Shown piece after piece: positions 21,773 to 57,595 of a stretch of 64,000 bases of DNA (positions are counted from its first letter, which is position 1; each line of letters begins with the position of its first letter). This DNA is from a virus, in the UHGV virus genome UHGV-0084588. One strand, written 5' to 3'. The translations under genes were made by a program, and so were the position numbers. The notes beneath the pieces are model-generated. The model was not told where the DNA came from. It was given only the letters and a program-made list of their open reading frames with translations, and ran no database searches.

Positions 21773-21855
21773 CTATTTCTAAGGTGTTTATACCTTATTT
21801 TGTATAAAGACGCTTAGAATGCGTTTTACGCACGATTTGGCGGTTAAAATGAATA

Positions 21856-22370: not shown

Positions 22371-22433
22371 ACTTTTCACCTTTTTTATAAAAAGTTAAAA
22401 AAAATATTTTTACAGACAACCCTTACTGCCGAC

Positions 22434-22463
22434 TGTCATAACAATTAACACCACTTCTATAAT
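22434..22463 (+). promoter_or_regulatory. possible sigma70-type promoter (perfect -10)
   Basis: TATAAT at 22458..22463 about 47 nt upstream of the ATG at 22511; the -35 region matches poorly. Confidence 0.3.
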
Positions 22464-22510
22464 CCGAACAATACTATGCAATCCACCCTGCCAACCACGA
22501 GGTAAATACG

Positions 22511-29174: not shown

Positions 29175-30374
29175 TTATCTCGTACCTGCTTCTGCCTGAA
29201 CGTCATCACGGGACGTCAAGTTAGCGTTAACGTGCACTGAAGCCTGAACCACACCGCCGTATTTCTTGTGCAGGTAACCTGTGTGTGGGTTATCCGCCGC
29301 AATATGGTTTTGTAGGTTCTGATTCGCCTGACTGATTGCGTTCGTGTTATTCGCAACCTGTTGTTTAAGCGCATCCAAGTTTTGTTGCAGATTATCAATT
29401 TTCTGATCGGTCTCATTACCCCGCTGTTCTAACGCAGCAATGCGCTGAATCGCTTGGTTGAGCTTGGTGTTCAGATCGTTGATATTTTTCTGTAACTGTA
29501 ACACTAACGAGTTTAGGTTCGCCAGTGCCAGTGCCATTTTCTGGTAGTTTTGTGCAACGACGTTAAGTTGGTCGTTCCACGCTTCCAGAGATTTGACAAC
29601 AGCATCAATACGTTTTCCTAACGCTTCGTCCGCTTTCTTCAATGCGTTGATTTCAGTAATCGTTGCATCAATGGCAGACTGCACGTCGCGGATAAGCGCA
29701 CGGATTTCCGTTTCCGTTAACCCGTTAACCTGATGAATATCCAGATGGTGGACATTACCAGTGGAGTTAATGTGCGCGTTCAGCGCGTCCAGGAAATCGT
29801 TTTTCAGGCTATCGAGAATCGCTTTGATGTTCTCAAGCTGTACAGCATCGCCCGCAGTTATCGCATCTTTAATACCGGCGAGCACTGTAATGATGTATTC
29901 GAAGCCGTAGATATCGCCGACGTCTTTATACGTTGGTGCCGAAGGAAACGTGTCCGGCACATTTCGCAAGTCTTTAAAGCCAACAGTTCGATTATCGAGA
30001 TTCAACTCGGCAATCGCTTGCTCAATCGCGGTCACAACTGCAGACTGTGGACCACCAACTACTTGCGCCGATACCGTGATATCGGTCGGAATCGCGGTGT
30101 TCGTTACAACAACCGCCATTACTACTTCCCGGTTCTTCGTCAATTTCTCGTAAGCCGGGTGTGCAAAAATCAGCTCATAGTCCGTTCCACGCTCATACGT
30201 CGCTCCAGGTCGATTGGCAACCCGCAAGCGGAACGTATCGGCATAAAACGGGCCATCAGGGAAAGCAAACGCACGGTTAACTTTACCTGTACCTAACGTA
30301 ATCTGACGCTCCACGGCGTTAGAGGTTAGGGTTCCCGTTAAATCTAAAGGGTATTGGTATACAATGGAGGCCAT
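29175..30374 (-). CDS. fibre-like protein with N-terminal anchor motif and coiled-coil shaft
   Basis: Start at the ATG at 30374 (AAGGAGAG RBS); N-terminal FAFPDGPFYADTFRLRV...GTDYELIF shared with the three giant tailspikes; long heptad-like region. Confidence 0.6.
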   Translation of the reverse strand: MASIVYQYPLDLTGTLTSNAVERQITLGTGKVNRAFAFPDGPFYADTFRLRVANRPGATYERGTDYELIFAHPAYEKLTKNREVVMAVVVTNTAIPTDITVSAQVVGGPQSAVVTAIEQAIAELNLDNRTVGFKDLRNVPDTFPSAPTYKDVGDIYGFEYIITVLAGIKDAITAGDAVQLENIKAILDSLKNDFLDALNAHINSTGNVHHLDIHQVNGLTETEIRALIRDVQSAIDATITEINALKKADEALGKRIDAVVKSLEAWNDQLNVVAQNYQKMALALANLNSLVLQLQKNINDLNTKLNQAIQRIAALEQRGNETDQKIDNLQQNLDALKQQVANNTNAISQANQNLQNHIAADNPHTGYLHKKYGGVVQASVHVNANLTSRDDVQAEAGTR

Positions 30375-30414
30375 GGCCACTCTCCTTAATCCGAGACGTC
30401 CTTGTCTCGTGGCG

Positions 30415-35601: not shown

Positions 35602-35619
35602 CGTAAAGACTCCTACTTT

Positions 35620-35658
35620 TAAATAAAATGGATACCCCTCCCCATTACAGGGAGGGGT
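35620..35658 (-). terminator. hairpin between tailspike genes
   Basis: ACCCCTCC-ccattacag-GGAGGGGT, followed on the minus strand by a U-rich stretch and the RBS of the next gene. Confidence 0.5.
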
Positions 35659-35695
35659 TACCTACGGACACACAACTGCCCGCAGGCAGTCTGTC

Positions 35696-39880: not shown

Positions 39881-39890
39881 AAAATTCTCC

Positions 39891-45597: not shown

Positions 45598-45807
45598 TTA
45601 GTCTTTTTTGTAGACAATCGCGTTACCGTGCAGTTTGTTGTTGCCGGAAATACCGATAACTTTGAATGCGTCGCCGCCAATTTTTTCGGCTTCAGCAGCC
45701 AGTTTACCAGTTACATGATCAACGGTATCGCCGAAAGCGCTGACGTTACCGATTTTCTTAAACTCTTCTGGAATATGCTCAGCAGAAGAGAACTCTTTAA
45801 TAGACAT
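45598..45807 (-). CDS. DUF1471 (BhsA/McbA/YdgH-like) domain protein lacking a signal peptide
   Basis: Start at the ATG at 45807 (GGAGAG RBS); C-terminal ...GDAFKVIGISGNNKLHGNAIVYKKD parallels the BhsA C-terminus (...SFRITSVTGPNTLHGTAVIYK) as recalled. Confidence 0.55.
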   Translation of the reverse strand: MSIKEFSSAEHIPEEFKKIGNVSAFGDTVDHVTGKLAAEAEKIGGDAFKVIGISGNNKLHGNAIVYKKD

Positions 45808-46013: not shown

Positions 46014-46979
46014 TTATTGCGGAGGTGATGTCGGGCCATGTTTACCTTGGTGAATGTGAACGCTAAAGGTAATACCAGAAATAACGGCATCTTTAACCGT
46101 AAAGACACCGACGCCTTTGCCAGTACCGCCGTATTTGAAGTTCTTAGCGATTTCCAGATTACCGGTGAACATCGCTTCATTCCCTTCTTGTTTAAAGTTC
46201 GGCGTTTTAAATGTTGTCGAACTCCCTGCTTCCGTTAACCAGGTTTGTGTTTTAAACGTAACGGATTTCGCTGCTTCCGTATTGCGAACTTCGCATTTTT
46301 CATTAATTGTTTTCGTTTCCAGGTTAATAGAACGCTTTGAATAAATGAACGCATCTTCTTTGTTGATGTTCACTTTTGAAAGCATCGCATTCTCAAAACC
46401 TAAATCGTCTTCCACCGAGTTAATGTAATACTTATTCCCTTTGTGGTCAACACACTGCCACGTGCCATTTGCATTATCAAACTGAAATAACCACGCCGCT
46501 TTCTCGCCGTTCACCATACTTGTTCTTAGCGTGATATGTTTGTCAATCGTCGAGATATTCAACACATACGCATTGGACAGGTCATCCGCCATCTGGTTTT
46601 CAGGGTCAGCAGACCACGCGTAAACCGCATCCTCTAATCGCTTAACGTTAGCGAAGTTCAGATCAATCCAAAAATAAATATCGGTTTTCCCCAAACGTAA
46701 CAAGATAACGTAATCTTCTCGTTTAACGTCAGGGGAATTAATTCGGTTGGAGTTAAACTTCCACCACTTTGCTGTTATCGTGTTACCCGTCTTAATGGTT
46801 AGGTTATCTGTTGCACCAGACGTTTCATGCGTCTTTTCAGTTGCTGAAGAAACAGATTGCACCACGGTAGGGTTAGCAAAGTTGGTTTCAATTGGTATCA
46901 CTTTTACCCGATCTGTACCACGGGGTTTGTCTTCCGCGACGATACCAATTGAGAAAAAATCAACACTGGATTTCTCCAT
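46014..46979 (-). CDS. possible baseplate central spike protein (gpV/gp138-like)
   Basis: 321 aa; N-terminal GIVAEDKPRGTDRVKVIPIE resembles the OB-fold start of spike proteins; C-terminal SVHIHQGKHG His cluster as at spike tips. Confidence 0.4.
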   Translation of the reverse strand: MEKSSVDFFSIGIVAEDKPRGTDRVKVIPIETNFANPTVVQSVSSATEKTHETSGATDNLTIKTGNTITAKWWKFNSNRINSPDVKREDYVILLRLGKTDIYFWIDLNFANVKRLEDAVYAWSADPENQMADDLSNAYVLNISTIDKHITLRTSMVNGEKAAWLFQFDNANGTWQCVDHKGNKYYINSVEDDLGFENAMLSKVNINKEDAFIYSKRSINLETKTINEKCEVRNTEAAKSVTFKTQTWLTEAGSSTTFKTPNFKQEGNEAMFTGNLEIAKNFKYGGTGKGVGVFTVKDAVISGITFSVHIHQGKHGPTSPPQ

Positions 46980-47007
46980 CGGGACGTTCCTTAGATCGGA
47001 ATTGAAT

Positions 47008-47033
47008 TCAGATATATATTACTTAAGTGAATA
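47008..47033 (+). promoter_or_regulatory. conserved 26-bp promoter-like motif (copy 3) with downstream hairpin
   Basis: TCAGATATATATTACTTAAGTGAATA followed by an 11-bp stem (TAGGGACTGAA/TTCAGTCCCTA); unlike the other copies it lies about 390 nt upstream of the next ATG. Confidence 0.45.
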
Positions 47034-47398
47034 GGGACTGAAGTACCAGTTCAGTCCCTACGGACACGTTTCATTCGAAACGGATTGATTAAACCATTTG
47101 GGGAGACAGATCATGTCTACTAAAAAAAGAAAGTCTCAATGAGCTGCTCAAACGTCTTAAAGACTACACTCCATTTAGTACCTTCCGATAACAGGTACTA
47201 AAATTTTACAGTCTGCCCCTTTATTCTGCTACTCGGGATACCGGTAGGGGGTAGGGGGCATTATGTATACGGATATAAATAGCGGAGGTATACGTAGTAT
47301 ACCGACATACTCTTCCCAGAGGAACGTAGTGACTTCCTTATTCCTCTTCTGCAATCCATAATAATAGACTCCCCTTTATTGAGATTAGCGAGTAAATC

Positions 47399-48136
47399 AT
47401 GAGAGAATTATTAGACGATATCTTTACTAACACCAGTTTAGAACTTTCTTCTACCGTTGTTAACGAACTATTAAAACAATCGCAACCTGCTAAGTTAATC
47501 GATGCTGGAACAATTAAACCTGAAGATTATCCAGACAGTGACGTTATCGACTGTATGATTGACGAATACGTGATAGGCAGTTACGCCAACCGCGTCTTCT
47601 TCGTTATTAATACCGAAACCAGTGTCATGTTAATCTATAAGTTGATCAGTGATGCCGAACTTGAAGTTGTGGCTGACCACATTCGTCTTCTTGCGAACAC
47701 GCCTACTAGTATCGATGATGTGCTTATTGGGAACGGTTGGGCTTTACCACCACTATTCTCTTACTTCCCTCTGTTTAGAAATGGGATAGGGTTACTCCGA
47801 AATGCAGAAAAGCTTCCCGATAACGTCGAGTTATCACTGCTTGGACCCGGCATCGATCTTTGTCCATTAGAAGACGAGGGCACGCTATATGGTTTGCGCA
47901 TCTATGTTTCTGTGTTAAAGGGTTACCGCGTTATTGAACTGATTGCATCCGACTTAGCAAAACAGATCCCAGATGTGGAAACGATTTCTAAAGCCACCCA
48001 CCTGGTTGAGATTAACTCAGACGATCCCTTATTGAAATATCACGAGAAAATTGATCTTCGTAAAATCGCCACGATGAGAGGGTGGAGTTGTGCTGAGATT
48101 ACGAAGGACTATCTGCTGTTAATTAAAACCGCGTAA
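47399..48136 (+). CDS. hypothetical protein (paralog array member 1)
   Basis: 245 aa; C-terminal ...RGWSCAEITKDYLLLIKTA is related to the GW...QLLF.AD ends of the next three genes. Confidence 0.55.
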   Translation: MRELLDDIFTNTSLELSSTVVNELLKQSQPAKLIDAGTIKPEDYPDSDVIDCMIDEYVIGSYANRVFFVINTETSVMLIYKLISDAELEVVADHIRLLANTPTSIDDVLIGNGWALPPLFSYFPLFRNGIGLLRNAEKLPDNVELSLLGPGIDLCPLEDEGTLYGLRIYVSVLKGYRVIELIASDLAKQIPDVETISKATHLVEINSDDPLLKYHEKIDLRKIATMRGWSCAEITKDYLLLIKTA

Positions 48137-48166
48137 TTAAGAAAACCGAAAAAAGGAGAATATACC

Positions 48167-48721
48167 ATGTTTCAAACTGAACTGAAAAATGAAATTATCC
48201 AAACCCTTGAAAAAGGCGTAGGCGAACATTTCTTTGTCCGTCCTTATACCGTACTGACCAATACCATTATCCAGCCAGGTGCGATGATAGTAGGGGTAAG
48301 TGTACAAGCTGTAGAGGAAGCCCCGCTGCGTCGTAACATCACACGTAAAAACCATATTCCATTTAGAACGGGTTTTACAAATTACTTTCAGAGCTTACTG
48401 AAAGATAGCGTTTGGAAAACAGGCAGCTTCTTCCACGAAGGGAAGACTTCCACGCTGGTTTATAAAGAGAACACCAAGTATCTGGTTGATTTTCTCTTAG
48501 CGCGTCAATACGATTTCTTTCCTTCACCCACCGGTCTCACCCCAGACAATCCGAGTAAGCTGTTAAACCAAGACGAAGCTGAAGCACTGCGTGCACAACT
48601 GAGAAAAGAAGGTTGTGATGTCGATGACCATGAAACCTTAATCGGGGTTGCTAAAGCACACGGTTGGTATACCGTGCGTGTATTTGGGCGTCAGATGTTG
48701 TTCTTAGCTTATAACGTTTAA
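48167..48721 (+). CDS. hypothetical protein (paralog array member 2)
   Basis: 184 aa; AAAAGGAGAATATACC-ATG; C-terminal AHGWYTVRVFGRQMLFLAYNV. Confidence 0.6.
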   Translation: MFQTELKNEIIQTLEKGVGEHFFVRPYTVLTNTIIQPGAMIVGVSVQAVEEAPLRRNITRKNHIPFRTGFTNYFQSLLKDSVWKTGSFFHEGKTSTLVYKENTKYLVDFLLARQYDFFPSPTGLTPDNPSKLLNQDEAEALRAQLRKEGCDVDDHETLIGVAKAHGWYTVRVFGRQMLFLAYNV

Positions 48722-48732
48722 AGGATGGTATC

Positions 48733-49860
48733 ATGCATATCTGTCATAACGCACCGTCGCACAAACTTTATCTTGAATTGCTTTTCGAGGACTACAAGAA
48801 AGGGGTGCCGAAAATATTACTTAGCATCCCGCCTGATACGCAAACTGAATTGTTCGGTCGCGTTTTTGGTTGTACCGTTAACGCTTTGCCAGAACCAATC
48901 TGTGCGCCTGTGGATAATTGTGTTTTCGACGAACGAATTGAGGATTTTCAATTCACCTTTTACGTAAACGATTCTTTACTGTACGATAAACTCTATGTTC
49001 GTGAGTTGAAATCAAATCAGCGGTTAATGTACCGCGTCTATCCGCCCCACAGAGGGTCGATACTAGAGTATAAAATCAGACGGCTACCTTACGAGGGTGT
49101 GAATTTACTCGACCAGCAGGATATGGCTTTTCTGGAAGAACTCTGTGGATTTGAAATTGAGAAGATTCACGTAACCCAGGAAATATCCCGAAACGTACCT
49201 AGTCGTCATACCCCTTACGGTGGGTTTCCGTACGAGTTCACCGACACAGGACTAAGGCTCGTAACCGAATTTAACGACGTAATGTATTACGCAGTGTGTA
49301 TTGAACGTAAAGTAGTGGAGAAAGAAATGACAAGTACATTGAAAGAAGAATTAGCCCAATTCATTCGTGATGTTGAAGAGAAAAGCAAGAGCGATCACAT
49401 TTTCTCACAACGTTATCCTGAACTTATTGACGAAACCACCGATAGTGTCGTCGATGGTATACGCATTTTCCCAAGTGGTCTTGCAATTTACCGACTGCCT
49501 AGTGTTAATCAGCTTAAAGTCATGGAAATGCTAAAAGACGTTTTAGCAGAAGCAGGTTGGGAATATCGTTTCGATTGCAATTTCGAAGGGATGGCGTTAT
49601 TCGTTACAAAGAAAAATTATACGTTGTCAATCGATCTGCCCAAAAGTCAATATTACAGTTTCTTCCCGAAAGCGGATGACCGCACTGAAAAAGAACCTGC
49701 GATGTTACTTGATGCGGCAGAGTCCAATACGCTAATGATACATCTGCGGACGATTGATAAAGAGTTAACTACCAGTCATTTAACGACGATCGGTAAAGAT
49801 TACGGTTGGAAATCTGTCGAACCGTATGGCAGTCAGCTACTGTTTGTTGCTGACCTCTAA
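48733..49860 (+). CDS. hypothetical protein (paralog array member 3)
   Basis: 375 aa; C-terminal DYGWKSVEPYGSQLLFVADL. Confidence 0.6.
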   Translation: MHICHNAPSHKLYLELLFEDYKKGVPKILLSIPPDTQTELFGRVFGCTVNALPEPICAPVDNCVFDERIEDFQFTFYVNDSLLYDKLYVRELKSNQRLMYRVYPPHRGSILEYKIRRLPYEGVNLLDQQDMAFLEELCGFEIEKIHVTQEISRNVPSRHTPYGGFPYEFTDTGLRLVTEFNDVMYYAVCIERKVVEKEMTSTLKEELAQFIRDVEEKSKSDHIFSQRYPELIDETTDSVVDGIRIFPSGLAIYRLPSVNQLKVMEMLKDVLAEAGWEYRFDCNFEGMALFVTKKNYTLSIDLPKSQYYSFFPKADDRTEKEPAMLLDAAESNTLMIHLRTIDKELTTSHLTTIGKDYGWKSVEPYGSQLLFVADL

Positions 49861-49886
49861 TAAGTGAAACTACACTTTCTCTAACT

Positions 49887-49910
49887 GCCGCGCTTTAGTC
49901 GCGGCTTTTG
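49887..49910 (+). terminator. weak hairpin terminator
   Basis: GCCGCG-cttta-gtCGCGGC followed by TTTTGTT. Confidence 0.4.
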
Positions 49911-49928
49911 TTAAGAAGGAAAAAAGAA

Positions 49929-50708
49929 ATGAAAATCCATTTAGACGACCTCTTTAAAACTGAACCGTACATGGTTAAAGGTTCGCTGGCTTCATTGTTG
50001 CTAGACGATAGATACCATCGAACGCTACAATTACAATCGGTAGAAACCGCGCCAACGGGAATTGAAGACGTGGGTCTTTACCAACGTATCACTCACACAC
50101 GTGGAGAATATCGTCGATATAAACCCGATACACTGACCGTTAAGCTTTGGCAAGTGGGCACAGGCAAGGTATTAAGTTATCGCGCCGTTGGTCTGTACCA
50201 CGTTGAACGTGCTTACACATGGTTAGAAGAAGTTAAAGAAATGGATTACGACCAGCTAAGCAAAAGACTTCGTGACCATAACGCCAGTTTACCGTTACGT
50301 AATTATTTCTCCACAGTTGAAAATAGTCGTTGTTTCGTTTCTCGCGAATCCATGATATTACCTGGAACTGACGTTCAGACGACGCTAAAAGACGTGGTTG
50401 TAAAGAAAGTCTTTCATGAGTCTGAACACGTTGGGTTTCGTATCTATTTAACCCACAAGAGACCATTTACCGTGATTCATGTTGTTACCGTACCCGAAGG
50501 ATCAGCAGTCTCTCGGGAACTTCCTGATGCTCGCGACCGTTGCCCTAATGAGCCGCTCTACTTAATGTCAGGAACAAAATCAACCGCGTTGATGTCTCGT
50601 TACAGCATGATAGATGTTGTTGACGCTGCTATGAAGCTAGGTTGGAAAGAAGTGCAGCAACACGGTAAACAGTTGCTGTTTATTGCCGATGTAAAACTTA
50701 ATTATTAG
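49929..50708 (+). CDS. hypothetical protein (paralog array member 4)
   Basis: Start at the ATG at 49929 (AAGGA RBS); C-terminal KLGWKEVQQHGKQLLFIADV. Confidence 0.55.
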   Translation: MKIHLDDLFKTEPYMVKGSLASLLLDDRYHRTLQLQSVETAPTGIEDVGLYQRITHTRGEYRRYKPDTLTVKLWQVGTGKVLSYRAVGLYHVERAYTWLEEVKEMDYDQLSKRLRDHNASLPLRNYFSTVENSRCFVSRESMILPGTDVQTTLKDVVVKKVFHESEHVGFRIYLTHKRPFTVIHVVTVPEGSAVSRELPDARDRCPNEPLYLMSGTKSTALMSRYSMIDVVDAAMKLGWKEVQQHGKQLLFIADVKLNY

Positions 50709-50720
50709 TGAGGTGGAACC

Positions 50721-51299
50721 GTGTACCGATTAATAGAAATGCGAAAAGACGTTTGGTTGGAAAATCTCGTCGATGGGGAGCTTGAGGGAGTTGGGCTTTC
50801 CTTACCAGAAAGGGCGGACACGGTATTAGCCTTTCTGATAAAGCGGGCAGCGAATGAACCTGTGGGGATTTTCGACGTGGATTACAAAGAACCGCGCGGA
50901 ATTCGTTTACGTAACATCTGTTGTGGTTTAGAGAACTTGACGGCAAGTCCTTTCGTAAACTACGCAAAACGTAAACTCCAGCCAGGGCAACATCTCTGGG
51001 TAGTTCTAGCGCCAGATATTCGCATTATGCGAGACGACCTGACTGCGTTTGTGCAAGCAACGAAAGTCAGTTTGTACAATCCTAATGCGGAACGTACCGA
51101 TATGCCGTTTACAATCACCTTAGAAGACGATGGAACGCAAGAGGGCATTGAGGCGATTACGGAATTAGTAAACTCTTATCCGGTTGCATCTATCGAGTTA
51201 GAAAACCCAAACCGATTACCGTTGGGGGATTTACTCGAATGGATTGAGCTGAATACTGAGTTCCTCATTAACTCCCGACAATATCGGTTCGATGTATAA
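50721..51299 (+). CDS. hypothetical protein
   Basis: 192-aa ORF with GTG start (GAGGTGG RBS). Confidence 0.5.
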   Translation: MYRLIEMRKDVWLENLVDGELEGVGLSLPERADTVLAFLIKRAANEPVGIFDVDYKEPRGIRLRNICCGLENLTASPFVNYAKRKLQPGQHLWVVLAPDIRIMRDDLTAFVQATKVSLYNPNAERTDMPFTITLEDDGTQEGIEAITELVNSYPVASIELENPNRLPLGDLLEWIELNTEFLINSRQYRFDV

Positions 51300-51303
51300 C
51301 GTC

Positions 51304-51336
51304 GGTGGGGGTAAACCCCCACCTTTTATTTTTTGT
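51304..51336 (+). terminator. rho-independent terminator
   Basis: GGTGGGGG-taaa-CCCCCACC followed by TTTTATTTTTTG. Confidence 0.8.
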
Positions 51337-51357
51337 TCGTCAACATTAAAAATAATT

Positions 51358-51383
51358 TCAGATATATATTACTTAGGTGAGAG
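51358..51383 (+). promoter_or_regulatory. conserved 26-bp promoter-like motif (copy 4) with downstream hairpin
   Basis: TCAGATATATATTACTTAGGTGAGAG followed by GAGTTA-tgat-TAACTC; 72 nt upstream of the ATG at 51430. Confidence 0.5.
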
Positions 51384-51429
51384 TTATGATTAACTCATTT
51401 ATACATTAACGCCTTAAAGGAGCAAAACA

Positions 51430-51891
51430 ATGAAATTTTTTACTTCCTTTTTAACCATCCTCTTAACGCTGGGTCTCAATACTGCACACGCAGCAATCAA
51501 TAGCTGGGAACAAATCCAGTCTCCAGACCAAGCCATCTACGAAATCGAAGACACTGAAGGCAACAGCCTCTCTATCAATTGCAGTACAGAAACCGCCAAT
51601 CGTAAATTTTACGGGCACAATGTTTGGTATTACGGAGAACCTGCAGGGGCAACAAACGCTGAGGATAACGCGCTCGATATTGTCGTAAATGGTAAAAAAT
51701 ACCGTATCCCTACCATCGACGGTAGCGACCGTTCAGAACAAGCCTGGGCGGATTTCATTAAAGCGGTCGGTGGGGCAAACCATTTTAGCTTGCTTATTAA
51801 CGATAACGTGGCAGCAGGGTTTACCGTAGAAGGCGAACGCCTTAACGAAACGTTTTTCCAGAACTGTGGACACAGCCGTCCTAACAAATAA
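51430..51891 (+). CDS. secreted protein (signal peptide)
   Basis: MKFFTSFLTILLTLGLNTAHA-AINSW is a typical Sec signal peptide with an AHA cleavage site; AAAGGAG RBS. Confidence 0.65.
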   Translation: MKFFTSFLTILLTLGLNTAHAAINSWEQIQSPDQAIYEIEDTEGNSLSINCSTETANRKFYGHNVWYYGEPAGATNAEDNALDIVVNGKKYRIPTIDGSDRSEQAWADFIKAVGGANHFSLLINDNVAAGFTVEGERLNETFFQNCGHSRPNK

Positions 51892-51919
51892 ATATTAATC
51901 TTTTTTAGAGTGCGTGAAA

Positions 51920-52306
51920 ATGAATATCAGAACTATACTTTATACTATCATTATTTTCTGTGCGGTCGGAATTACTGGCACTTATGCTTTCGGTGATTCG
52001 GATGTCCGCTATTACGAACCGGCTCCTGACTCACCCATTATCAACCCGGATGAGTCCCCTACGTTAATGCGCAGTTTCGGTAAACTGCAAGTTTATCGTT
52101 TAGTGCGTGGTGAAACGTGTACGGGATTACTCATTGCTGACACCCGTGCACAAGTCTACCAACGTCTAACCGATATTGCTTGCGAACAACCGAAAGTAAT
52201 GTCAGTTAGTATCCATCCGCTATCAGTTGGTAACTATACCGCTGTGGACTTCTTTCATAACGCCGAATTAATTGGCCGTGTTACTTTAAATCGTCCTGCT
52301 GAATAA
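51920..52306 (+). CDS. secreted/membrane-anchored small protein
   Basis: MNIRTILYTIIIFCAVGITGTYAFG N-terminal hydrophobic segment; an alternative GTG start exists at 51914. Confidence 0.5.
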   Translation: MNIRTILYTIIIFCAVGITGTYAFGDSDVRYYEPAPDSPIINPDESPTLMRSFGKLQVYRLVRGETCTGLLIADTRAQVYQRLTDIACEQPKVMSVSIHPLSVGNYTAVDFFHNAELIGRVTLNRPAE

Positions 52307-52324
52307 TCTAAAGGAGTAGTTGCA

Positions 52325-52810
52325 ATGAAACGTTTACATACGCTGATGTTCTTTCTGGTTTTCTTGTTTATCGGTGCCACACCAACTGTAGATGCGGCCT
52401 CCGTAGACGAATTACTTACCTGTGATGGAAACGCTTGGGAAGGTCAGCCAAATGCGTGCCCGAACATCAACGACTTGTACGATACCGATAAGTCATTTAA
52501 AGCTGTTGTTGATAAAACACTAGACCCGGTGGGACTGGATGGTATGTTCGGCTCTAAAGGTTACATGGATGGTCCTGGCGGTAACATGTATCCGGTAAAC
52601 ATCAACAACAAAATCTGGATTGAAAGTGGTGGTTGTAAAGCTAATGCTTGTGGCTGGGAATACATCGTAACGCTATACAACCCACACACCAAGAAACTCG
52701 TCGGTTATTACTACAACATCGACCCCGGTTATCTGATTTGGTTCGGTGATATCGGTGTTGCTGAATTCGCTTACCTGGTTAAGAAATACGCGGAACAATC
52801 TAAATACTAA
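52325..52810 (+). CDS. secreted protein (signal peptide)
   Basis: MKRLHTLMFFLVFLFIGATPTVDA-ASV; AAGGAG RBS; several Cys in the mature part. Confidence 0.65.
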   Translation: MKRLHTLMFFLVFLFIGATPTVDAASVDELLTCDGNAWEGQPNACPNINDLYDTDKSFKAVVDKTLDPVGLDGMFGSKGYMDGPGGNMYPVNINNKIWIESGGCKANACGWEYIVTLYNPHTKKLVGYYYNIDPGYLIWFGDIGVAEFAYLVKKYAEQSKY

Positions 52811-52821
52811 GGACTTTTATC

Positions 52822-53232
52822 ATGAAAACTATCATCAACACTCTTCTCATTGCAATTGCTATTCTGTTCTCTGTTAACGTATCAGCAAAAACAATACAGT
52901 TGCCAGACGGTATTAAGTACGTCAATAGCACCGACGATTTCTACTGTACGGAAATTGACGGTCTGTACTGCCAGGCGAAGAACCTGTTTAAATACAAAGG
53001 TAGCAGATACGTGTTCATCGTTGAGCAAGGTGGTGCCTGGTGCTACGACAGCCCAATGTCTGTACTCAACCTCGAAACGTGGAAGGCACAACGTCTTGAA
53101 TACAACGACAAACATTTGTGCTCAGGCAACAACAAACCATTCTTCAAAGTCGTAGATGGTGTACCGATGGTAGGGATATTAGACACTTCGGAAAAACCTA
53201 TCGTTGTAGCTATGGATAAACTTAAAATTTAA
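52822..53232 (+). CDS. secreted protein (signal peptide)
   Basis: MKTIINTLLIAIAILFSVNVSA-KTIQ; Cys-containing mature part. Confidence 0.65.
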   Translation: MKTIINTLLIAIAILFSVNVSAKTIQLPDGIKYVNSTDDFYCTEIDGLYCQAKNLFKYKGSRYVFIVEQGGAWCYDSPMSVLNLETWKAQRLEYNDKHLCSGNNKPFFKVVDGVPMVGILDTSEKPIVVAMDKLKI

Positions 53233-53242
53233 GGAGTAACTC

Positions 53243-53632
53243 ATGCGTCTCATCTGCGCTTTAGCATTCTTCTTCTCCCTGGGTGTAGCGGCATCTACTC
53301 AAGTTAACGATTTACTGCTAACCCCAAACAACAATACCGATTACCAGTACAATCCTCCGGGGTTTGAAGTTTGTGAAGTCGGTGAAACAATCTGCCAAGA
53401 AGTCGGCGCAGACGGGCGCTATATTCTGGTAAAAGCTGATGGTGGCACAATGTGTCCCGCAGGTTATTACTTTCTTCTCGATTCCGTTGCAAGAGAGGTT
53501 CTTCCTATCACCACGAAAACGTGCGACCCTACTGTTGTCTTAACTCTCGCTAAAAGCAAATCTCGCGACCGTTATCTGATCGTTATCGAAGAACGGGGCA
53601 AGATGGCTGGCGCTATCGAATTAGATCATTGA
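53243..53632 (+). CDS. secreted protein (signal peptide)
   Basis: MRLICALAFFFSLGVAAS-TQV; AAGGAG RBS; followed by a terminator. Confidence 0.65.
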   Translation: MRLICALAFFFSLGVAASTQVNDLLLTPNNNTDYQYNPPGFEVCEVGETICQEVGADGRYILVKADGGTMCPAGYYFLLDSVAREVLPITTKTCDPTVVLTLAKSKSRDRYLIVIEERGKMAGAIELDH

Positions 53633-53642
53633 GTGTAGTCTT

Positions 53643-53670
53643 GGCCCCGGAATGTCCGGGGTCCTTTTTT
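53643..53670 (+). terminator. rho-independent terminator
   Basis: GCCCCGG-aatgt-CCGGGGT followed by CCTTTTTT. Confidence 0.75.
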
Positions 53671-53700
53671 ACGACATGTTTTACCTAAAGGAGTATTAAA

Positions 53701-54177
53701 ATGCAATTATCTAACGTCTATCAAGCTGCGCAATTTCATCATGACCTGTCGGCTAAACCTGAACAAATTCGCCACAACTTAACGGTGGCCTGGAAACTGC
53801 TGCGCATCGCAGAAGCCGCACGCCTTAACGATCAGTCAACGATTATCGACACTGTGCGCACATTACATCCAGTTGACCTGGAAACAATCTGGACATTTGA
53901 TTTAACCCGAATTTATCATCGCCGTTTTAATGCGGCGGTTGACGCAATCCGGCCTTACTTTCACCACCTGCGGACAACACGCGAAAATGACACCGCGCTC
54001 GAATGGGTATTGGTACAAAGCGTATGGAGCGACTACATTTATCTCCTTTCTTTAGAGACGGGTGAATGTATCGTTGCTAACGAAGTTTTTTCAAGTAACG
54101 CAGAAATGTATCGTTCCTTCGCGACGATTAAAGGTGAAACACAGCCTATTTTATCACTCACGCACTTAGGGCTATAA
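53701..54177 (+). CDS. hypothetical protein
   Basis: 158-aa ORF preceded by the conserved TTTTACCTAAAGGAGTATTAAAATG context. Confidence 0.6.
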   Translation: MQLSNVYQAAQFHHDLSAKPEQIRHNLTVAWKLLRIAEAARLNDQSTIIDTVRTLHPVDLETIWTFDLTRIYHRRFNAAVDAIRPYFHHLRTTRENDTALEWVLVQSVWSDYIYLLSLETGECIVANEVFSSNAEMYRSFATIKGETQPILSLTHLGL

Positions 54178-54180
54178 TTA

Positions 54181-54213
54181 GCCCGGCCCCGTTTATTCGG
54201 GGCTTCTTTTTTT
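54181..54213 (+). terminator. rho-independent terminator
   Basis: GCCCCG-tttattc-GGGGC followed by a T-run. Confidence 0.75.
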
Positions 54214-54233
54214 GATCTAAAAGGAAAGACCAG

Positions 54234-54842
54234 ATGAACGAAATTACCTTAGTTCGTTTTCTTGAAGCGATGCAAAATGCAGAGCGTTTTTCGCATACGC
54301 CTTTATTCATCGACTTAATGGAAGAGGAAGTAGAGGGCTTCCTGGCGTATCCACGCTTACGGGAGTATTTTAAACGTAAAACGCCGAATGCTTACGAAAA
54401 ATTGGTTTACGCACTTGAGAACAGTTCAACATTGTTAACGACGCCTTTCAAGGCGTTGGAGGCTTTAGACCCGGCTGGTACCACAAGTATCCCACAACGT
54501 GTTGTGTTCTACTATATCGACCACGATCGAATTAAAGCCGATGTTGTTAACTGGATCTCTGAAAACGCAGTTCCAGAAACACGCACTTTTAATCTCTGTC
54601 CTGTAGAAGAAGGGTGGAAGGTCGGCAATCACTATTCTTATCCATACCAATCCATTAAATCACCGTTTTTATACCCGGTTTATCTGGACGACGTTACGCC
54701 AGGAAATTGCATTCCGGTAACAAACCTGATCTGTGCACTGACAATGGAAGTCTTAGCCACAAAGGCGGGACAGGTTTGGGTAGAAAACGCGAAGAACATC
54801 GATTATTGGACTTCAATGGGTTATCACCCATATACCAAATAA
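54234..54842 (+). CDS. hypothetical protein
   Basis: 202-aa ORF; AAAGGAAAGACCAG-ATG. Confidence 0.6.
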   Translation: MNEITLVRFLEAMQNAERFSHTPLFIDLMEEEVEGFLAYPRLREYFKRKTPNAYEKLVYALENSSTLLTTPFKALEALDPAGTTSIPQRVVFYYIDHDRIKADVVNWISENAVPETRTFNLCPVEEGWKVGNHYSYPYQSIKSPFLYPVYLDDVTPGNCIPVTNLICALTMEVLATKAGQVWVENAKNIDYWTSMGYHPYTK

Positions 54843-54847
54843 CGTTT

Positions 54848-54890
54848 GGGAGAACCTTCGGGTTCTCCCTTCTCTGTTTTTTTTTCTTTT
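54848..54890 (+). terminator. rho-independent terminator
   Basis: GGGAGAACC-ttcg-GGTTCTCCC followed by a long T-tract. Confidence 0.8.
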
Positions 54891-54921
54891 TACACCACAC
54901 TCCGTCTTTATGGAGGTGGGT

Positions 54922-57426
54922 ATGCTAAAAGTTGAACGCATTATACTCAAAGGTTTTACGGGGATGGGATTACATGAAATTGAAACTTTCGATTTCACTA
55001 TCCAGTCTCCAACAACAATTATCCTGGGTGGGAACGGTTGCGGGAAAACCAGTCTACTGTCTGTATTCTTACCCTTAGCACCGGCTAAAACTGAATTCAG
55101 AGACGGCGGTTCTTACACGAACTACTGTTTAGTTGGTGATCAACGGTATCGATTCAAAGTTGCCCGTAAAGGTAACTCTTTGGTTTGCGATATTGAAAAT
55201 CTGACCACGGGAGCAAAGATCGTCGAGCAAGGTAATGCGAAGGTCTACAACTCCCGTGTTGAAGAAATCACGGGTATTACGAAAGAAATTAAAGAACTAT
55301 TAAATGGTGATGTTTTGTTAACCGATGCGGGAACCGAATTACGCCGTAAATGGTTTTACCGTTTAAGTACCTCTGATCTCACATACGCGTTAGGGTTTTA
55401 TCAACGTTTGCGTAAAAACCTTACCGCCTTAAATGGGGGTATTGAAATCACCAGTCGCAAGATTGCCGAATTACGGACGCGTGTTATTGAGAACGAGGAA
55501 GAACGACAACAATTAGCAACGAGATTAAAAGGTCTGGAATCGGATTTACGTGAACTGAACCGAGAAATCGAACAGTTGCCAGGATTAAATCGTGCTGTCA
55601 CGATCGAAACAATCCAAGCGTTATTAAACGGTTTGGGTCCAACCATCGACGCAATATTACAACATCGTGGTGGGTTGCCTACTGATGAACAGATACTGGT
55701 CGCCCGACAAAATGAAGCGACAGCCCGCGAAGCCGTCGTTTCTACCGAAACAGAGGTATCGATGTTGAATAAAGATTTATCGCTATTGATGGATGAGTCA
55801 ACACGACAAGACTACCTGATGCGGAATCACGAAGGTCTCAAGAATACACTGGCACGTTTACGTGAGTTACTTACCAAGTGGGACACCGAACATCTCTTTC
55901 CAGGTTTATTTAACGATAACGTTAATTTAGACCAACTTCGTGCGGCTACCGATGCGCGTGTTTGGGGACAACGGTTGGGGACAACACTGGACGCTATTCA
56001 TTCAACCGAGAAACTCAATGTTTTGGAAGAACGTCTTCTGGTGATGGATCAAAAAACCGCAGGATTACGGGATAGACTCCAGCGAGTGGAGAACGTTTTA
56101 CAGAATTTAAATCACGAGCGTAACCACTACTTAGAAACGGCAGAAGTGGATTGTCCGCAGTGTCGGTTTAAGTTTCGGCCAGGTGTTACGCGTTCTTTAC
56201 CTGAACTCGAGTCATCGATTCGTGGACAACAACAGCAGCGGACGGAACTGCAAACGCAGTTAGAGACTTTATTACGCGATCGTGTTGAATTAGAATCTGA
56301 TGTAACTTATATGCGGCAGGTTCGTGAGATTGTACTGACGTATTCAAAAGACCCTGTATTGAGCATGTTCTTTAAGCGTTTGCAAGAACGTAACGTTTTC
56401 ACAGAGTCTCGCGAGCAGTTCGGGAGTCTATGCGCAGCGTTTGACGGTGAGTTGTACTCTGCTATTGAGTACCATGAAACCCGACAACGGTTAGTGAAAG
56501 CGGAAAAAGAATGGCAGGATGCCGTGGCGGCCGTTGGTAACGTCGATGGTGCTTTACAACAAAAGATCGCCTTCCAACAGTCACGGTTAGGTAAAGCCAC
56601 AGAGATGCTCTCAATGCGTCGTAGAGAGCACGAACTGGCTAACACGACACTTACCTATCTAGTGAATGTTAAACGTGCTGTAGATGATTTCAGTGCGTTA
56701 TTCGAACGGTTAGAGAGTGATGTTAAGGTTACTTTGACAAATACGGTCGTCGAGGAGCTCTTACGAGTGCGGGAAGGGAAGCTGGATGCTTTTACAACTG
56801 CACGCGAACGTTATCGTCAGATGGAAAACGAATTGAATCAGCTCAACAGTTTGGAGCGCGAACTTACAGACTTACAAGCCCAACAGTTCAATAACAAACT
56901 GATGATTCAAGCCTTCTCGCCAGAAAAGGGTGTACTTAGAAAGTATTTTTACAACGCTATCGTTAGAATCACAGAGTTAATGACGCGTTATATCGAACAG
57001 GTCTGGACGTACCCCATGCGCGTTATGCCCTGTGATCTCACTGACGGTGATTTGGATTATACTTTTCCTGTCCAGCTAAAAACGCACCCTGAGCCTGTTC
57101 CTGACGTGCGTAAAGGGTCTAAGGCACAGCGTGCTATATTTAATCTGATGTTCAGACTGACTGCGTACAAAGCGTTGAAGTTGCATCAGTTTCCGTTGCT
57201 TTTGGATGAGCCTTCGGAAGGCATGGACGAGGAGCACCGTAATAACCTGGTCGGCTTTATTAAAACGTTAGCAAACTCGGGAGAATTTTCACAGCTGTTG
57301 GTAGTCTCCCACGAAGCCGAGGTTCATTCTAAACTTAATGAAGCATCGTACTGTGTCATCGAACCGGAAGGAGTGACATTGCCTGCGGTGTATAACGAAG
57401 GAGTAAAAATTGTTTATGCAAACTGA
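54922..57426 (+). CDS. SMC/Rad50/RecN-like ABC-type ATPase with long coiled-coil
   Basis: Start at the ATG at 54922 (GGAGGTGGG RBS). N-terminal Walker A ILGGNGCGKTSLLSVF; about 550 aa of Glu/Leu/Arg/Gln-rich coiled-coil with a central CPQC hook-like motif; C-terminal Walker B LLLDEPSEGMD and VVSHEAEV. Confidence 0.65.
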   Translation: MLKVERIILKGFTGMGLHEIETFDFTIQSPTTIILGGNGCGKTSLLSVFLPLAPAKTEFRDGGSYTNYCLVGDQRYRFKVARKGNSLVCDIENLTTGAKIVEQGNAKVYNSRVEEITGITKEIKELLNGDVLLTDAGTELRRKWFYRLSTSDLTYALGFYQRLRKNLTALNGGIEITSRKIAELRTRVIENEEERQQLATRLKGLESDLRELNREIEQLPGLNRAVTIETIQALLNGLGPTIDAILQHRGGLPTDEQILVARQNEATAREAVVSTETEVSMLNKDLSLLMDESTRQDYLMRNHEGLKNTLARLRELLTKWDTEHLFPGLFNDNVNLDQLRAATDARVWGQRLGTTLDAIHSTEKLNVLEERLLVMDQKTAGLRDRLQRVENVLQNLNHERNHYLETAEVDCPQCRFKFRPGVTRSLPELESSIRGQQQQRTELQTQLETLLRDRVELESDVTYMRQVREIVLTYSKDPVLSMFFKRLQERNVFTESREQFGSLCAAFDGELYSAIEYHETRQRLVKAEKEWQDAVAAVGNVDGALQQKIAFQQSRLGKATEMLSMRRREHELANTTLTYLVNVKRAVDDFSALFERLESDVKVTLTNTVVEELLRVREGKLDAFTTARERYRQMENELNQLNSLERELTDLQAQQFNNKLMIQAFSPEKGVLRKYFYNAIVRITELMTRYIEQVWTYPMRVMPCDLTDGDLDYTFPVQLKTHPEPVPDVRKGSKAQRAIFNLMFRLTAYKALKLHQFPLLLDEPSEGMDEEHRNNLVGFIKTLANSGEFSQLLVVSHEAEVHSKLNEASYCVIEPEGVTLPAVYNEGVKIVYAN

Positions 57427-57595
57427 TTGGTTCCGTCGTTTTATGGACGCGGCGGGGTTTGGTTTCATGTCCATTCTAGCGGTTCTTTATGTCATGTTTT
57501 GCGTGGTGATGATTTTATGGGTAGTTTCATCTTATCTGATTAAACTATCGTGGGGTTCAATTTGGCGTCAACGTGAATGCGAATGGCGGAATTAG
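57410..57595 (+). CDS. small membrane protein
   Basis: 61 aa with a hydrophobic core (FGFMSILAVLYVMFCVVMILWVVSSYLI); TTG at 57410 or ATG at 57416 as start; overlaps the end of the ATPase gene. Confidence 0.45.
   Translation: MFMQTDWFRRFMDAAGFGFMSILAVLYVMFCVVMILWVVSSYLIKLSWGSIWRQRECEWRN

What the first reader, a model, noticed from the sequence alone, without database searches (positions are those of the whole stretch)
54922..57426. Stand-alone 834-aa SMC/Rad50-like ATPase without an adjacent Mre11/SbcD-type nuclease
It has Walker A and Walker B motifs, a long coiled-coil and a central CPQC motif that could be a zinc hook. T4 gp46 (Rad50-like) is paired with the gp47 nuclease, but neither neighbour here is a phosphoesterase. 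It could be a recombination ATPase with a distant partner, or a decoy or inhibitor of host SMC-like defence (Wadjet, Lamassu, RecBCD-type).
Basis: partly seen in the sequence, partly recalled or inferred. Interest (0 to 1): 0.5.

Follow-up and report, generated by a model that had tools for sequence, protein, structure and literature searches.

The report
Jumbo-phage Rad50/SbcC repair ATPase gene
This is the already-described Rad50/SbcC-type DNA-end-processing ATPase of a nucleus-forming jumbo phage; it only looks "stand-alone" because in this phage family its Mre11/SbcD nuclease partner is encoded about 90-150 kb away rather than next to it.

Summary
The ORF is real: 54922-57426 (+), 834 aa. 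It has Walker A, signature, Walker B, D-loop and H-loop motifs, two roughly 250-residue helical arms, and a central CPQC. No phosphoesterase gene lies next to it or anywhere in the window.

It belongs to the phage SbcC-like family (PHROG_77, E=7e-90). Its best sequence and fold matches in the PDB are Rad50. The catalytic residues and both hook cysteines are invariant across nucleus-forming jumbo phages down to about 20% identity.

The window comes from a roughly 221-225 kb SPN3US/Asesino-like ("Seoul-like") phage. In a 225-kb relative (95% nt identity over this gene) an SbcD-like gene lies about 87 kb downstream of the SbcC-like gene. A near-identical homologue of that protein (93% identity) models as an Mre11 fold, and all metal-binding motifs are conserved across the family. 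The two genes are also far apart in Asesino and SPN3US.

The literature already covers this. SPN3US gp186 is an essential SbcC subunit whose SbcD (gp27) is "drastically separated" in the genome. The phiKZ orthologue orf165 is a core gene that tolerates no transposon insertions.

Verdict: an ordinary, already known recombination and repair gene. The decoy/anti-defence idea is not supported.

The parts
54922..57426 (+). Rad50/SbcC-like ABC ATPase gene (834 aa), orthologue of SPN3US gp186, Asesino gp207 and phiKZ orf165
   Evidence: ORF. PHROG_77 'SbcC-like' E=7e-90. 70.9% aa identity to Asesino gp207 and 58% to SPN3US. Best PDB sequence and fold matches are Rad50.
54912..54916 (+). Shine-Dalgarno-like GGAGG, 5 nt upstream of the ATG at 54922
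   Evidence: Read directly from the sequence. It supports the 834-aa start over the ATG at 54910.
55027..55050 (+). Walker A / P-loop codons (GGNGCGKT, residues 36-43)
   Evidence: N38, G39, G41 and K42 are invariant in 10 homologues down to 20% identity.
55381..56136 (+). Ascending helical (coiled-coil) arm, residues 154-405
   Evidence: Secondary structure of the AlphaFold2 model.
56152..56163 (+). CPQC (residues 411-414), putative zinc hook at the apex of the coiled coil
   Evidence: C411 and C414 are invariant and P412 is at least 90% conserved across the family. The motif lies in the 406-425 hairpin between the two arms.
56197..56916 (+). Descending helical (coiled-coil) arm, residues 426-665
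   Evidence: Secondary structure of the AlphaFold2 model.
57118..57312 (+). C-terminal ATPase motifs: signature S733-K-A-Q736, Walker B L759-LLDE763, D-loop D769, H-loop H797
   Evidence: S733, D762, E763 and H797 are invariant, and D769 is at least 90% conserved.
54848..54869 (+). Terminator-like GC hairpin followed by a T-run, between the upstream 202-aa ORF and the SbcC-like gene
   Evidence: Consensus scan. This is a pattern match only; function has not been shown.
57416..57595 (+). 59-aa ORF with one strongly hydrophobic segment. Its ATG overlaps the end of the SbcC-like gene (ATGCAAACTGA). It may be an accessory or membrane-anchor protein.
   Evidence: overlap; 19-aa Kyte-Doolittle maximum 2.8. 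phrog_16515, E=2e-4. The same overlapping small gene is present in Asesino (gp208) and SPN3US. It was noted for SPN3US gp187 in PMC5105663.

Best explanation
The gene encodes the Rad50/SbcC subunit of a phage Mre11-Rad50 (SbcCD, T4 gp46/gp47-type) DNA-end-processing complex in a nucleus-forming jumbo phage of the SPN3US/Asesino-like group.

Shown here: it has a complete bipartite ABC-ATPase head, two long helical arms and an invariant CPxC hook. Rad50 is its closest solved relative. An Mre11-fold, SbcD-like metallophosphoesterase is encoded elsewhere in the genomes of its relatives.

Taken from the literature: the orthologue is essential in SPN3US, and the phiKZ orthologue tolerates no transposon insertions.

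Inferred from established Mre11-Rad50 biology: two ATPase subunits join through a Zn2+-bridged hook and through ATP-dependent head engagement. They bind an SbcD dimer at the base of the coiled coil and use ATP to drive nucleolytic processing of DNA ends and hairpins. As with T4 gp46/gp47, this would feed recombination-dependent replication and repair of the phage genome. The distance between the two genes reflects the scrambled gene order typical of phiKZ-related genomes, not a separate function.
For: - Family: PHROG_77 'SbcC-like subunit', E=7e-90, covering the whole protein.
- Sequence matches to solved structures: a single-sequence search gives Rad50 as the best hits. With a family profile, the top 14 PDB sequences are all Rad50, down to E=1e-12, and both head halves match.
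- Fold: the AF2 model (pLDDT 81) has a head / coiled coil / hairpin / coiled coil / head layout. The best Foldseek hit is C. thermophilum Rad50, 7zr1, E=1e-18.
- Conservation: N38, G39, G41, K42, C411, C414, S733, D762, E763 and H797 are invariant down to about 20% identity, in phiKZ-like phages, RAY, PCH45, EL and RSL2.
- Selection: dN/dS is 0.025 against a relative with 95% nt identity.
- Partner location: on the IMG/VR contig 3300029126_000001 (225 kb), an SbcC 99% aa identical to the window's lies at 53.7-56.2 kb and an SbcD-like gene at 143.1-144.3 kb, on the same strand. Asesino has gp44 and gp207, and SPN3US has genes at 21.0 kb and 168.9 kb.
- Partner identity: PHROG_100 'SbcD-like', E=1e-59. 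Pfam Metallophos is the top hit in 6 of 6 members. The motifs D-x-H, GD-x-x-D, SHD, H and H-x-H are invariant in 27 sequences. The AF2 model has pLDDT 90, and its best folds are human and M. jannaschii Mre11, E=6e-11 and TM 0.69.
- Co-occurrence: the SbcC and SbcD queries each hit 290 phage records with near-identical host breakdowns. Both proteins also occur in one Salmonella Braenderup assembly, with locus tags E1L24_22495 and E1L24_21185.
- Literature: PMC5105663 (SPN3US gp186 is an essential SbcC subunit, its phiKZ homologue is ORF165, and SbcD is gp27, 'drastically separated'). PMC12676376 (phiKZ orf165 has no Tn insertions). PMC12571901 (phiKZ 165 is listed in the core genome as 'SbcC-like nuclease', with a weak knock-down phenotype). 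PMC7824862 (SbcC and SbcD are practically universal in jumbo phages).
Against: - No biochemical data exist for any jumbo-phage SbcCD. Complex formation, zinc binding and nuclease activity are all inferred.
- The SbcD gene of the window's own genome lies outside the window and could not be retrieved. Its presence is extrapolated from a relative with 95% nt identity over this gene.
- The Pfam SMC_N hit is below the gathering threshold (33.8 against 40 bits).
- Profile comparisons with single T4 gp46 and E. coli SbcC sequences are weak and cover only head motifs (probabilities 69% and 33%).
- The signature motif is S-K-A-Q rather than S-G-G, and I did not identify an invariant Q-loop glutamine.
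- Motif III of the partner is G-T-P-S-H-D rather than G-N-H-D, and its Pfam Metallophos score is sub-threshold.
- Knock-down of the phiKZ orthologue gave only a weak phenotype (PMC12571901).
- Other SMC-like families (Smc5/6, condensin, MukB, Lamassu LmuB, JetC) also match the fold, with weaker E-values.
Confidence: 0.9

Rival explanations
1. It is a decoy or inhibitor of host SMC-like defence systems (Wadjet, Lamassu, RecBCD-type). It would mimic an SMC/Rad50 protein in order to poison or titrate them, and would act without a nuclease partner.
For: There is no adjacent nuclease gene. The model also resembles Lamassu LmuB and Wadjet JetC chains, at E=1e-8 to 1e-12.
Against: A decoy would not need a fully intact ATPase, yet all catalytic residues and the hook are invariant down to about 20% identity, and dN/dS is 0.025. 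The gene co-occurs with an Mre11-fold SbcD in the same phage group. The orthologue is essential in SPN3US on ordinary laboratory hosts, and phiKZ orf165 tolerates no Tn insertions (PMC5105663, PMC12676376); anti-defence genes are usually dispensable under such conditions. Rad50 matches are better than Lamassu or Wadjet matches.
Confidence: 0.02
2. It is an SMC-type DNA organiser (condensin-like) that compacts or tethers phage DNA inside the phage nucleus or for packaging, and works independently of the SbcD nuclease.
For: Database records call it an 'SMC domain-containing protein'. Its arms are much longer than those of T4 gp46 (834 against 560 aa, PMC5105663). Smc5/6, condensin and MukB are strong fold matches. 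The gene is not linked to SbcD.
Against: There is no hinge domain. The two arms are joined by a 20-residue hairpin carrying an invariant CPxC, which is the Rad50 hallmark. The best sequence and fold matches are Rad50. I looked for kleisin-type partner genes only by Pfam/PHROG scans of the flanking ORFs, and these gave no such hit. The gene co-occurs closely with SbcD.
Confidence: 0.04
3. It is a Rad50-like ATPase that has been re-used with a different effector, as in RloC, or a Lamassu/Gabija-like ATPase-nuclease pair used for competition between phages. It would not work with the distant SbcD.
For: Retron and PtuA-type ATPases give weak N-terminal hits, E about 5e-4 to 5e-3. The downstream overlapping 59-aa membrane ORF could be an alternative partner.
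Against: Those hits cover only the P-loop region. No effector domain is fused to the protein, and none was found in the flanking ORFs scanned. The gene is a core gene across all nucleus-forming phages, not an accessory one (PMC12571901).
Confidence: 0.02

Closest known systems
SPN3US gp186 (SbcC subunit) with gp27 (SbcD); orthologues Asesino gp207/gp44 and phiKZ orf165
   Same: These are direct orthologues: 58% aa identity to SPN3US and 70.9% to Asesino, over the full length. Flanking gene order is conserved, including the overlapping small membrane ORF, the acetyltransferase, the macro-domain protein and the transglycosylase. The SbcD gene is far away in the same way. The essentiality and gene separation are published (PMC5105663).
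   Different: There is no functional difference in kind. The window's phage is a distinct species-level lineage, with no megablast hit among GenBank phage records. It is known only from metagenome and isolate-assembly contigs.
T4 gp46/gp47 (phage Rad50/Mre11, recombination and host-DNA degradation)
   Same: Both are in the same PHROG families (77 for SbcC-like, 100 for SbcD-like). Head motifs align. The SbcD motifs I, II, III and V align with gp47. A small membrane protein gene is associated with both (gp47.1 in T4).
   Different: In T4 the two genes are clustered, separated by only two small ORFs, whereas here they are about 87-148 kb apart. gp46 is 560 aa against 834 aa here, so the arms are much longer. 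Sequence similarity is barely detectable (hhalign probability 69%, N-terminal 114 columns only).
E. coli SbcCD
   Same: The architecture is the same, an ABC ATPase with a coiled coil plus a calcineurin-like phosphoesterase. Walker B, D-loop and H-loop regions align. The SbcCD head structure 7yzp is among the fold hits.
   Different: sbcD and sbcC overlap in one operon. SbcC is 1048 aa. Similarity is very low.
Archaeal and eukaryotic Rad50-Mre11
   Same: These are the best sequence and structure matches in the PDB for both subunits: P. furiosus, M. jannaschii and C. thermophilum Rad50, and human and M. jannaschii Mre11. The hook has the same CPxC form.
   Different: Identity is only about 12-14%. 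There is no Nbs1/Xrs2. The signature motif is S-K-A-Q. Motif III of the partner is SHD rather than NHD.
SMC proper, MukB, Smc5/6, Wadjet JetC, Lamassu LmuB
   Same: They share the ABC head plus long antiparallel coiled-coil fold.
   Different: These are weaker matches than Rad50. The window protein has no hinge domain. No kleisin, JetABD or LmuA hit was found among the flanking ORFs scanned.

Membership tests
Rad50/SbcC (ATPase subunit of Mre11-Rad50/SbcCD) | Bipartite ABC-ATPase head: N-terminal Walker A, and C-terminal signature motif, Walker B, D-loop and H-loop | tested here: met
   GGNGCGKT 36-43, S733-K-A-Q736, LLLDE 759-763, D769 and H797 are present. The key residues are invariant across the family. 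The signature motif is atypical (SKAQ), and no Q-loop glutamine was identified.
Rad50/SbcC (ATPase subunit of Mre11-Rad50/SbcCD) | Long antiparallel coiled coil inserted between the two head halves | tested here: met
   The AF2 model (pLDDT 81) has helices at 154-405 and 426-665 that fold back so the N- and C-terminal lobes form one head.
Rad50/SbcC (ATPase subunit of Mre11-Rad50/SbcCD) | CxxC zinc hook at the coiled-coil apex, instead of an SMC hinge | tested here: met
   CPQC at 411-414 lies in the 20-residue hairpin between the arms. C411 and C414 are invariant and P412 is at least 90% conserved, down to 20% identity. Zinc binding itself cannot be tested here.
Rad50/SbcC (ATPase subunit of Mre11-Rad50/SbcCD) | Closer to Rad50/SbcC than to SMC, RecN, RecF or ABC transporters by sequence profile and by fold | tested here: met
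   PHROG_77, E=7e-90. The top 14 profile hits in the PDB are all Rad50. The best Foldseek hit is Rad50 7zr1, E=1e-18. Pfam has only SMC_N, below threshold.
Rad50/SbcC (ATPase subunit of Mre11-Rad50/SbcCD) | A cognate Mre11/SbcD metallophosphoesterase is encoded in the same genome | tested here: met
   This is met in the relative with 95% nt identity over this gene (same 225-kb contig), in Asesino and in SPN3US. The partner is in PHROG_100 at E=1e-59, has invariant motifs and an Mre11 fold. It was not seen directly in the window's own scaffold, because it lies outside the 64-kb window.
Rad50/SbcC (ATPase subunit of Mre11-Rad50/SbcCD) | Adjacent or operonic arrangement with the nuclease gene (typical of bacteria and T4, but not defining) | tested here: not met
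   No SbcD homologue is present in the window. The genes are about 87 kb apart in the 225-kb relative, and 147-148 kb apart in the linear records of SPN3US and Asesino. This is the published norm for phiKZ-related phages (PMC5105663).
Rad50/SbcC (ATPase subunit of Mre11-Rad50/SbcCD) | Physical complex with Mre11/SbcD and ATP-dependent nuclease activity | not testable with these tools
   This needs co-purification and nuclease assays, or at least a multimer structure prediction.
SMC proper (condensin, cohesin, MukB-like) | Globular hinge dimerisation domain at the coiled-coil apex, with kleisin or kite partners | tested here: not met
   Only a 20-residue CPxC hairpin joins the arms. The flanking ORFs scanned have no kleisin-type Pfam or PHROG hit.
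Wadjet JetC / Lamassu LmuB-type defence ATPases, or mimics of them | Encoded in a cassette with JetA/B/D or LmuA/C, with an accessory and patchy distribution | tested here: not met
   The flanking genes are a PHROG of unknown function, a small membrane ORF, a GNAT, a macro-domain protein and an SLT. The gene is conserved in 290 phiKZ-like phage records and is listed in the Chimalliviridae core genome (PMC12571901).
Chimalliviridae core gene set (SPN3US gp186 / phiKZ orf165 orthologous group) | Full-length orthology and conserved synteny with the SbcC-like gene of nucleus-forming jumbo phages | tested here: met
   There are full-length alignments at 58-71% identity to SPN3US, Asesino and phiEaH2, and at 20-25% to phiKZ-like phages, RAY, PCH45, EL and RSL2. 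Flanking gene order matches Asesino, SPLA5c and SPN3US.

The most novel reading that the evidence does not exclude
The Rad50-like ATPase of nucleus-forming jumbo phages has an extra, Mre11-independent role. Three features prompt this idea: arms about 250 residues long (the protein is about 50% larger than T4 gp46), a gene always unlinked from SbcD, and, in this clade, translational coupling to a conserved 59-aa membrane protein. The extra role could be tethering or organising phage DNA at the nuclear shell or at the early-infection vesicle, or processing genome ends for packaging. My evidence does not exclude this and does not point to it either.
Probability: 0.07. Interest if true: 0.45.

Novelty: already known. 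Interest (0 to 1): 0.07.

Why it matters
It matters little as a discovery. The gene is a routine member of the SbcC/SbcD pair, which is almost universal in jumbo phages, and both its essentiality and its separation from SbcD are published.

The useful outcomes are practical:
- The "SMC domain-containing" or "hypothetical" label of this orthologous group can be replaced by "Rad50/SbcC-like subunit, partner SbcD encoded distally".
- The absence of an adjacent nuclease should not be read as evidence of a new function in phiKZ-related genomes, whose functional modules are scattered.
- The biochemistry of this divergent Mre11-Rad50 pair is still untested. That includes its long arms, its SKAQ signature, the SHD motif III of the partner, and where the complex acts relative to the phage nucleus.

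Tried and rejected
- A megablast search of the region against GenBank phages, complete E. coli genomes and PLSDB plasmids found nothing. The phage is known only from metagenome and draft isolate assemblies.
- The first SbcD scan of IMG/VR used Asesino-derived peptide patterns and missed the closest relative. An alignment-derived query found it.
- Pfam at E<=0.01 did not recognise the SbcD-like protein, and a six-sequence profile found no Mre11 in the PDB by sequence. A relaxed Pfam scan, PHROGs, motif conservation and a fold search resolved it.
- hhalign of the family profiles against single T4 and E. coli reference sequences gave only weak, partial matches. I do not rely on them.
- I could not show SbcD on the window's own ENA scaffold. 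Look-ups and modelling are restricted to window proteins and cluster representatives.
- The Chimalliviridae core-genome paper (PMC10299810) has no text on this gene.
- The decoy, SMC-condensin and alternative-effector readings were considered and rejected, as set out under the rival explanations.
Full report
**1. Observation**

The six-frame ORF list shows one long ORF, 54910-57426 (+), with an internal ATG at 54922. GGAGG at 54912-54916 lies 5 nt before the 54922 ATG, and homologues align from residue 1 of that form.

The protein has Walker A (GGNGCGKT, 36-43), Walker B (LLLDE, 759-763) and a single CxxC (CPQC, 411-414) next to the midpoint of the protein. Alignment to Rad50 chains also identifies a signature-type S733-K-A-Q736 and the H-loop region; family alignments add D-loop D769 and H-loop H797.

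Neither flanking gene is a phosphoesterase. The 158-aa and 202-aa upstream ORFs and the 59-aa downstream ORF have no Pfam hit and belong to PHROGs of unknown function. Further downstream come a GNAT acetyltransferase, a macro-domain protein and an SLT transglycosylase.

**2. What genome this is**

Megablast against GenBank phages finds nothing. tblastn finds homologues in 290 phage records, all of them jumbo phages of the phiKZ-related, nucleus-forming group. The best are Erwinia phages Asesino, Stratton and phiEaH2 (about 71% aa) and Salmonella phage SPN3US and its relatives (58%). Pseudomonas phiKZ-like phages, RAY, PCH45, EL and RSL2 match at 20-25%.

Gene order around the ORF is the same as in Asesino, SPLA5c and SPN3US. 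The rest of the window encodes a tail fibre, a family of very large paralogous virion proteins and a baseplate assembly protein.

The exact 834-aa protein lies on a 220,786-bp ENA metagenome scaffold at 150922-153426, so the window corresponds to about 96001-160000 of that scaffold. A 225-kb IMG/VR contig carries a copy that is 99% identical in protein and 95% in DNA. Between the two copies dN/dS is 0.025, which indicates strong purifying selection.

**3. Family assignment**

- PHROGs places the whole protein in phrog_77, 'SbcC-like subunit of palindrome specific endonuclease', at E=7e-90.
- Pfam gives only a sub-threshold SMC_N hit.
- Against PDB sequences, the best single-sequence hits are Rad50. 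With a 10-sequence family profile, the top 14 hits are all Rad50, down to E=1e-12, and both the N- and C-terminal head halves match. These rank ahead of any SMC protein or ABC transporter; no RecN or RecF chain is listed.
- An AlphaFold2 model built on 20 homologues (mean pLDDT 81) shows an N-terminal ABC lobe, helices 154-405, a short hairpin at 406-425 carrying CPQC, helices 426-665 and a C-terminal ABC lobe.
- The best Foldseek match to that model is C. thermophilum Rad50 (7zr1, E=1e-18). Smc5/6, condensin, MukB, Lamassu and Wadjet chains follow at weaker E-values, as expected for a shared fold.
- In an alignment reaching phiKZ-like phages, RAY, PCH45, EL and RSL2 (20-22% identity), only 24 columns are invariant. 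They include N38/G39/G41/K42, C411, C414, S733, D762/E763 and H797.

The CPxC is therefore a conserved hook and not a chance motif, and the ATPase is under selection to remain catalytically competent.

**4. The missing nuclease**

A tblastn search with the annotated SbcD-like protein of SPN3US finds nothing in the window (best E=0.26). No ORF of 80 aa or more contains a GNH[DE] motif. The partner is not in these 64 kb.

It is present in every related genome I examined, always far from the SbcC-like gene:

| Genome | SbcD-like gene | SbcC-like gene |
|---|---|---|
| SPN3US | 21020-22168 | 168900-171410 |
| Asesino | gp44, 21690-22910 | gp207, 170896-173406 |
| IMG/VR 225-kb contig | about 143.1-144.3 kb | 53.7-56.2 kb |

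On the IMG/VR contig the two genes are on the same strand and about 87 kb apart. A tblastn search with SbcD also hits exactly 290 phage records, with almost the same host breakdown as the SbcC search. I did not verify that the two sets are identical. Members of both 90%-identity protein clusters occur in the same Salmonella Braenderup draft assembly, with locus tags E1L24_22495 and E1L24_21185.

**5. Is the partner really an Mre11/SbcD?**

- PHROGs says yes: phrog_100, E=1e-59.
- Pfam Metallophos is the top hit for 6 of 6 members, but below threshold at E about 1e-3.
- In 27 homologues down to 26% identity, the metal-binding motifs are invariant: D22-x-H24, G57-D58-x-x-D61, G97-T-P-S100-H101-D102, H180 and H212-x-H214. 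Motif III is a family-specific SHD in place of NHD.
- An AlphaFold2 model of P0050, which is 93% identical to the relative's SbcD, has pLDDT 90 and pTM 0.81. It shows a phosphoesterase core, a second alpha/beta domain, a low-confidence linker and two C-terminal helices, which is the Mre11 layout by inference.
- The best Foldseek matches to that model are human Mre11 (E=6e-11) and M. jannaschii Mre11 (TM 0.69). These are about four orders of magnitude ahead of purple acid phosphatase, LpxH and other metallophosphoesterases.

**6. What is already published**

- Thomas et al. 2016 (PMC5105663) isolated amber mutants of SPN3US. [quoted passage not shown] They also noted the longer inter-domain region relative to T4 gp46 and the small transmembrane protein encoded immediately downstream.
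- Iyer et al. [quoted passage not shown] - An antisense screen lists phiKZ 165 in the core genome as 'SbcC-like nuclease', with a weak knock-down phenotype (PMC12571901).

**7. Mechanism**

Shown here: membership of the Rad50/SbcC family by motifs, architecture, hook and best matches; the presence of an Mre11-fold partner in the genomes of relatives; and strong purifying selection. Essentiality of the orthologue in SPN3US, and intolerance of transposon insertion in phiKZ, come from the literature.

Inferred from established Mre11-Rad50, SbcCD and T4 gp46/gp47 biology: the protein dimerises through a Zn-bridged hook and ATP-engaged heads, and binds an SbcD dimer at the base of its coiled coil. 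ATP binding and hydrolysis then drive resection of DNA ends and cleavage of hairpins. This would supply substrates for the phage recombinase and for recombination-dependent replication and repair. Where this happens relative to the phage nucleus is unknown.

**8. Rivals**

- Decoy or anti-defence protein. This is contradicted by the invariance of every catalytic residue, by core-gene status, by co-occurrence with SbcD and by essentiality on ordinary hosts.
- SMC-condensin-like organiser. This is contradicted by the hook in place of a hinge, by Rad50 being the best match and by the absence of kleisin-type hits among the flanking ORFs scanned.
- Pairing with some other effector. Nothing supports this beyond P-loop-only hits to retron and PtuA ATPases.

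**9. Caveats**

- I could not retrieve the SbcD of the window's own scaffold. The extrapolation rests on a relative with 95% nt identity over this gene and on the conserved arrangement in three genera.
- No biochemistry exists for this divergent pair.
- The signature motif (SKAQ) and the partner's motif III (SHD) are atypical.
- Comparisons with single T4 and E. coli sequences are weak.

**10. Verdict**

The finding is an ordinary, previously described gene. Novelty: already known. Interest: low.

Noticed in passing
window 54922-57426 and its protein cluster; the SbcD cluster P0050: Both 90%-identity protein clusters (285 and 248 members) include proteins from draft assemblies labelled Salmonella enterica (several serovars), E. 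coli and Shigella flexneri, on contigs of about 220-228 kb. This lytic-type jumbo phage therefore turns up as near-complete contigs in many bacterial isolate assemblies. It is absent from complete E. coli RefSeq genomes and from PLSDB. This matches the published 'persistent Seoul-like jumbo phages' (bioRxiv 10.1101/2024.12.31.630880; also PMC12768965).
   Followed up: partly
window 57416-57595 (+): A 59-aa ORF with one strongly hydrophobic segment (ILAVLYVMFCVVMILWVVS). Its ATG overlaps the last codons of the SbcC-like gene (ATGCAAACTGA), which suggests translational coupling. The arrangement is conserved in Asesino (gp208) and SPN3US. The ORF hits phrog_16515. The equivalent SPN3US protein was compared with T4 gp47.1 in PMC5105663.
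   Followed up: partly
window 51430-53632 (+): Five consecutive small ORFs (129-161 aa) each start with a signal-peptide-like hydrophobic N-terminus. The first hits Pfam PF27224 (YfjT) in the precomputed annotation of the source scaffold. Together they form a cluster of putative secreted or periplasmic proteins of unknown role in a jumbo phage.
   Followed up: no
window about 45598-45807 (-), equivalent to L039 677-886: A 69-aa gene with a Pfam PF07338 (YdgH/BhsA-like) hit sits next to the baseplate assembly gene. This is a family of bacterial small periplasmic stress proteins, here carried by the phage.
   Followed up: no
window 46014-54921, compared with L034, L035 and L037: In phiKZ-like phages, RAY and EL, the SbcC-like gene lies immediately next to a divergently transcribed baseplate assembly gene. 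In the window the baseplate gene (46014-46979, -, phrog_3216) is about 8 kb upstream. The gap is filled by about 13 small + strand genes of unknown function, which looks like a clade-specific insertion or expansion.
   Followed up: no
window 54848-54869 (+) and 54185-54204 (+): Two GC-rich hairpins followed by T-runs (terminator-like) lie after the ORFs ending at 54177 and 54842. The second leaves only about 50 nt before the SbcC start, and that stretch contains TTTATGG just upstream of the SD. The gene may therefore have its own very compact promoter.
   Followed up: no
window 29175-44213 (-): Four adjacent genes (434, 1727, 1393 and 1439 aa) hit overlapping sets of 'virion structural protein' PHROGs (2163, 7449, 8078, 7557), so they form a tandem paralogue family of giant virion proteins. 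This is probably the SPN3US gp168-type baseplate/fibre paralogue family mentioned in PMC5105663.
   Followed up: no
window 24877-26211 (-): A 443-aa radical SAM domain protein (phrog_1802, E=4e-114) lies within the structural region.
   Followed up: no
SbcD-like family (A5; L025 2992-4140): Phosphoesterase motif III is invariantly G-T-P-S-H-D instead of the canonical G-N-H-D/E. This probably explains why Pfam Metallophos scores stay below threshold. The metal-ligand asparagine appears to be replaced by serine, with a one-residue insertion.
   Followed up: partly
L040 1716-2708: In one Logan contig, a 330-aa ORF with faint NUMOD1 / I-HmuI-like hits (a candidate homing endonuclease) sits about 2.3 kb upstream of the SbcD-like gene. 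No ORF of 100 aa or more other than the annotated neighbours occupies the corresponding stretch of the IMG/VR relative.
   Followed up: no
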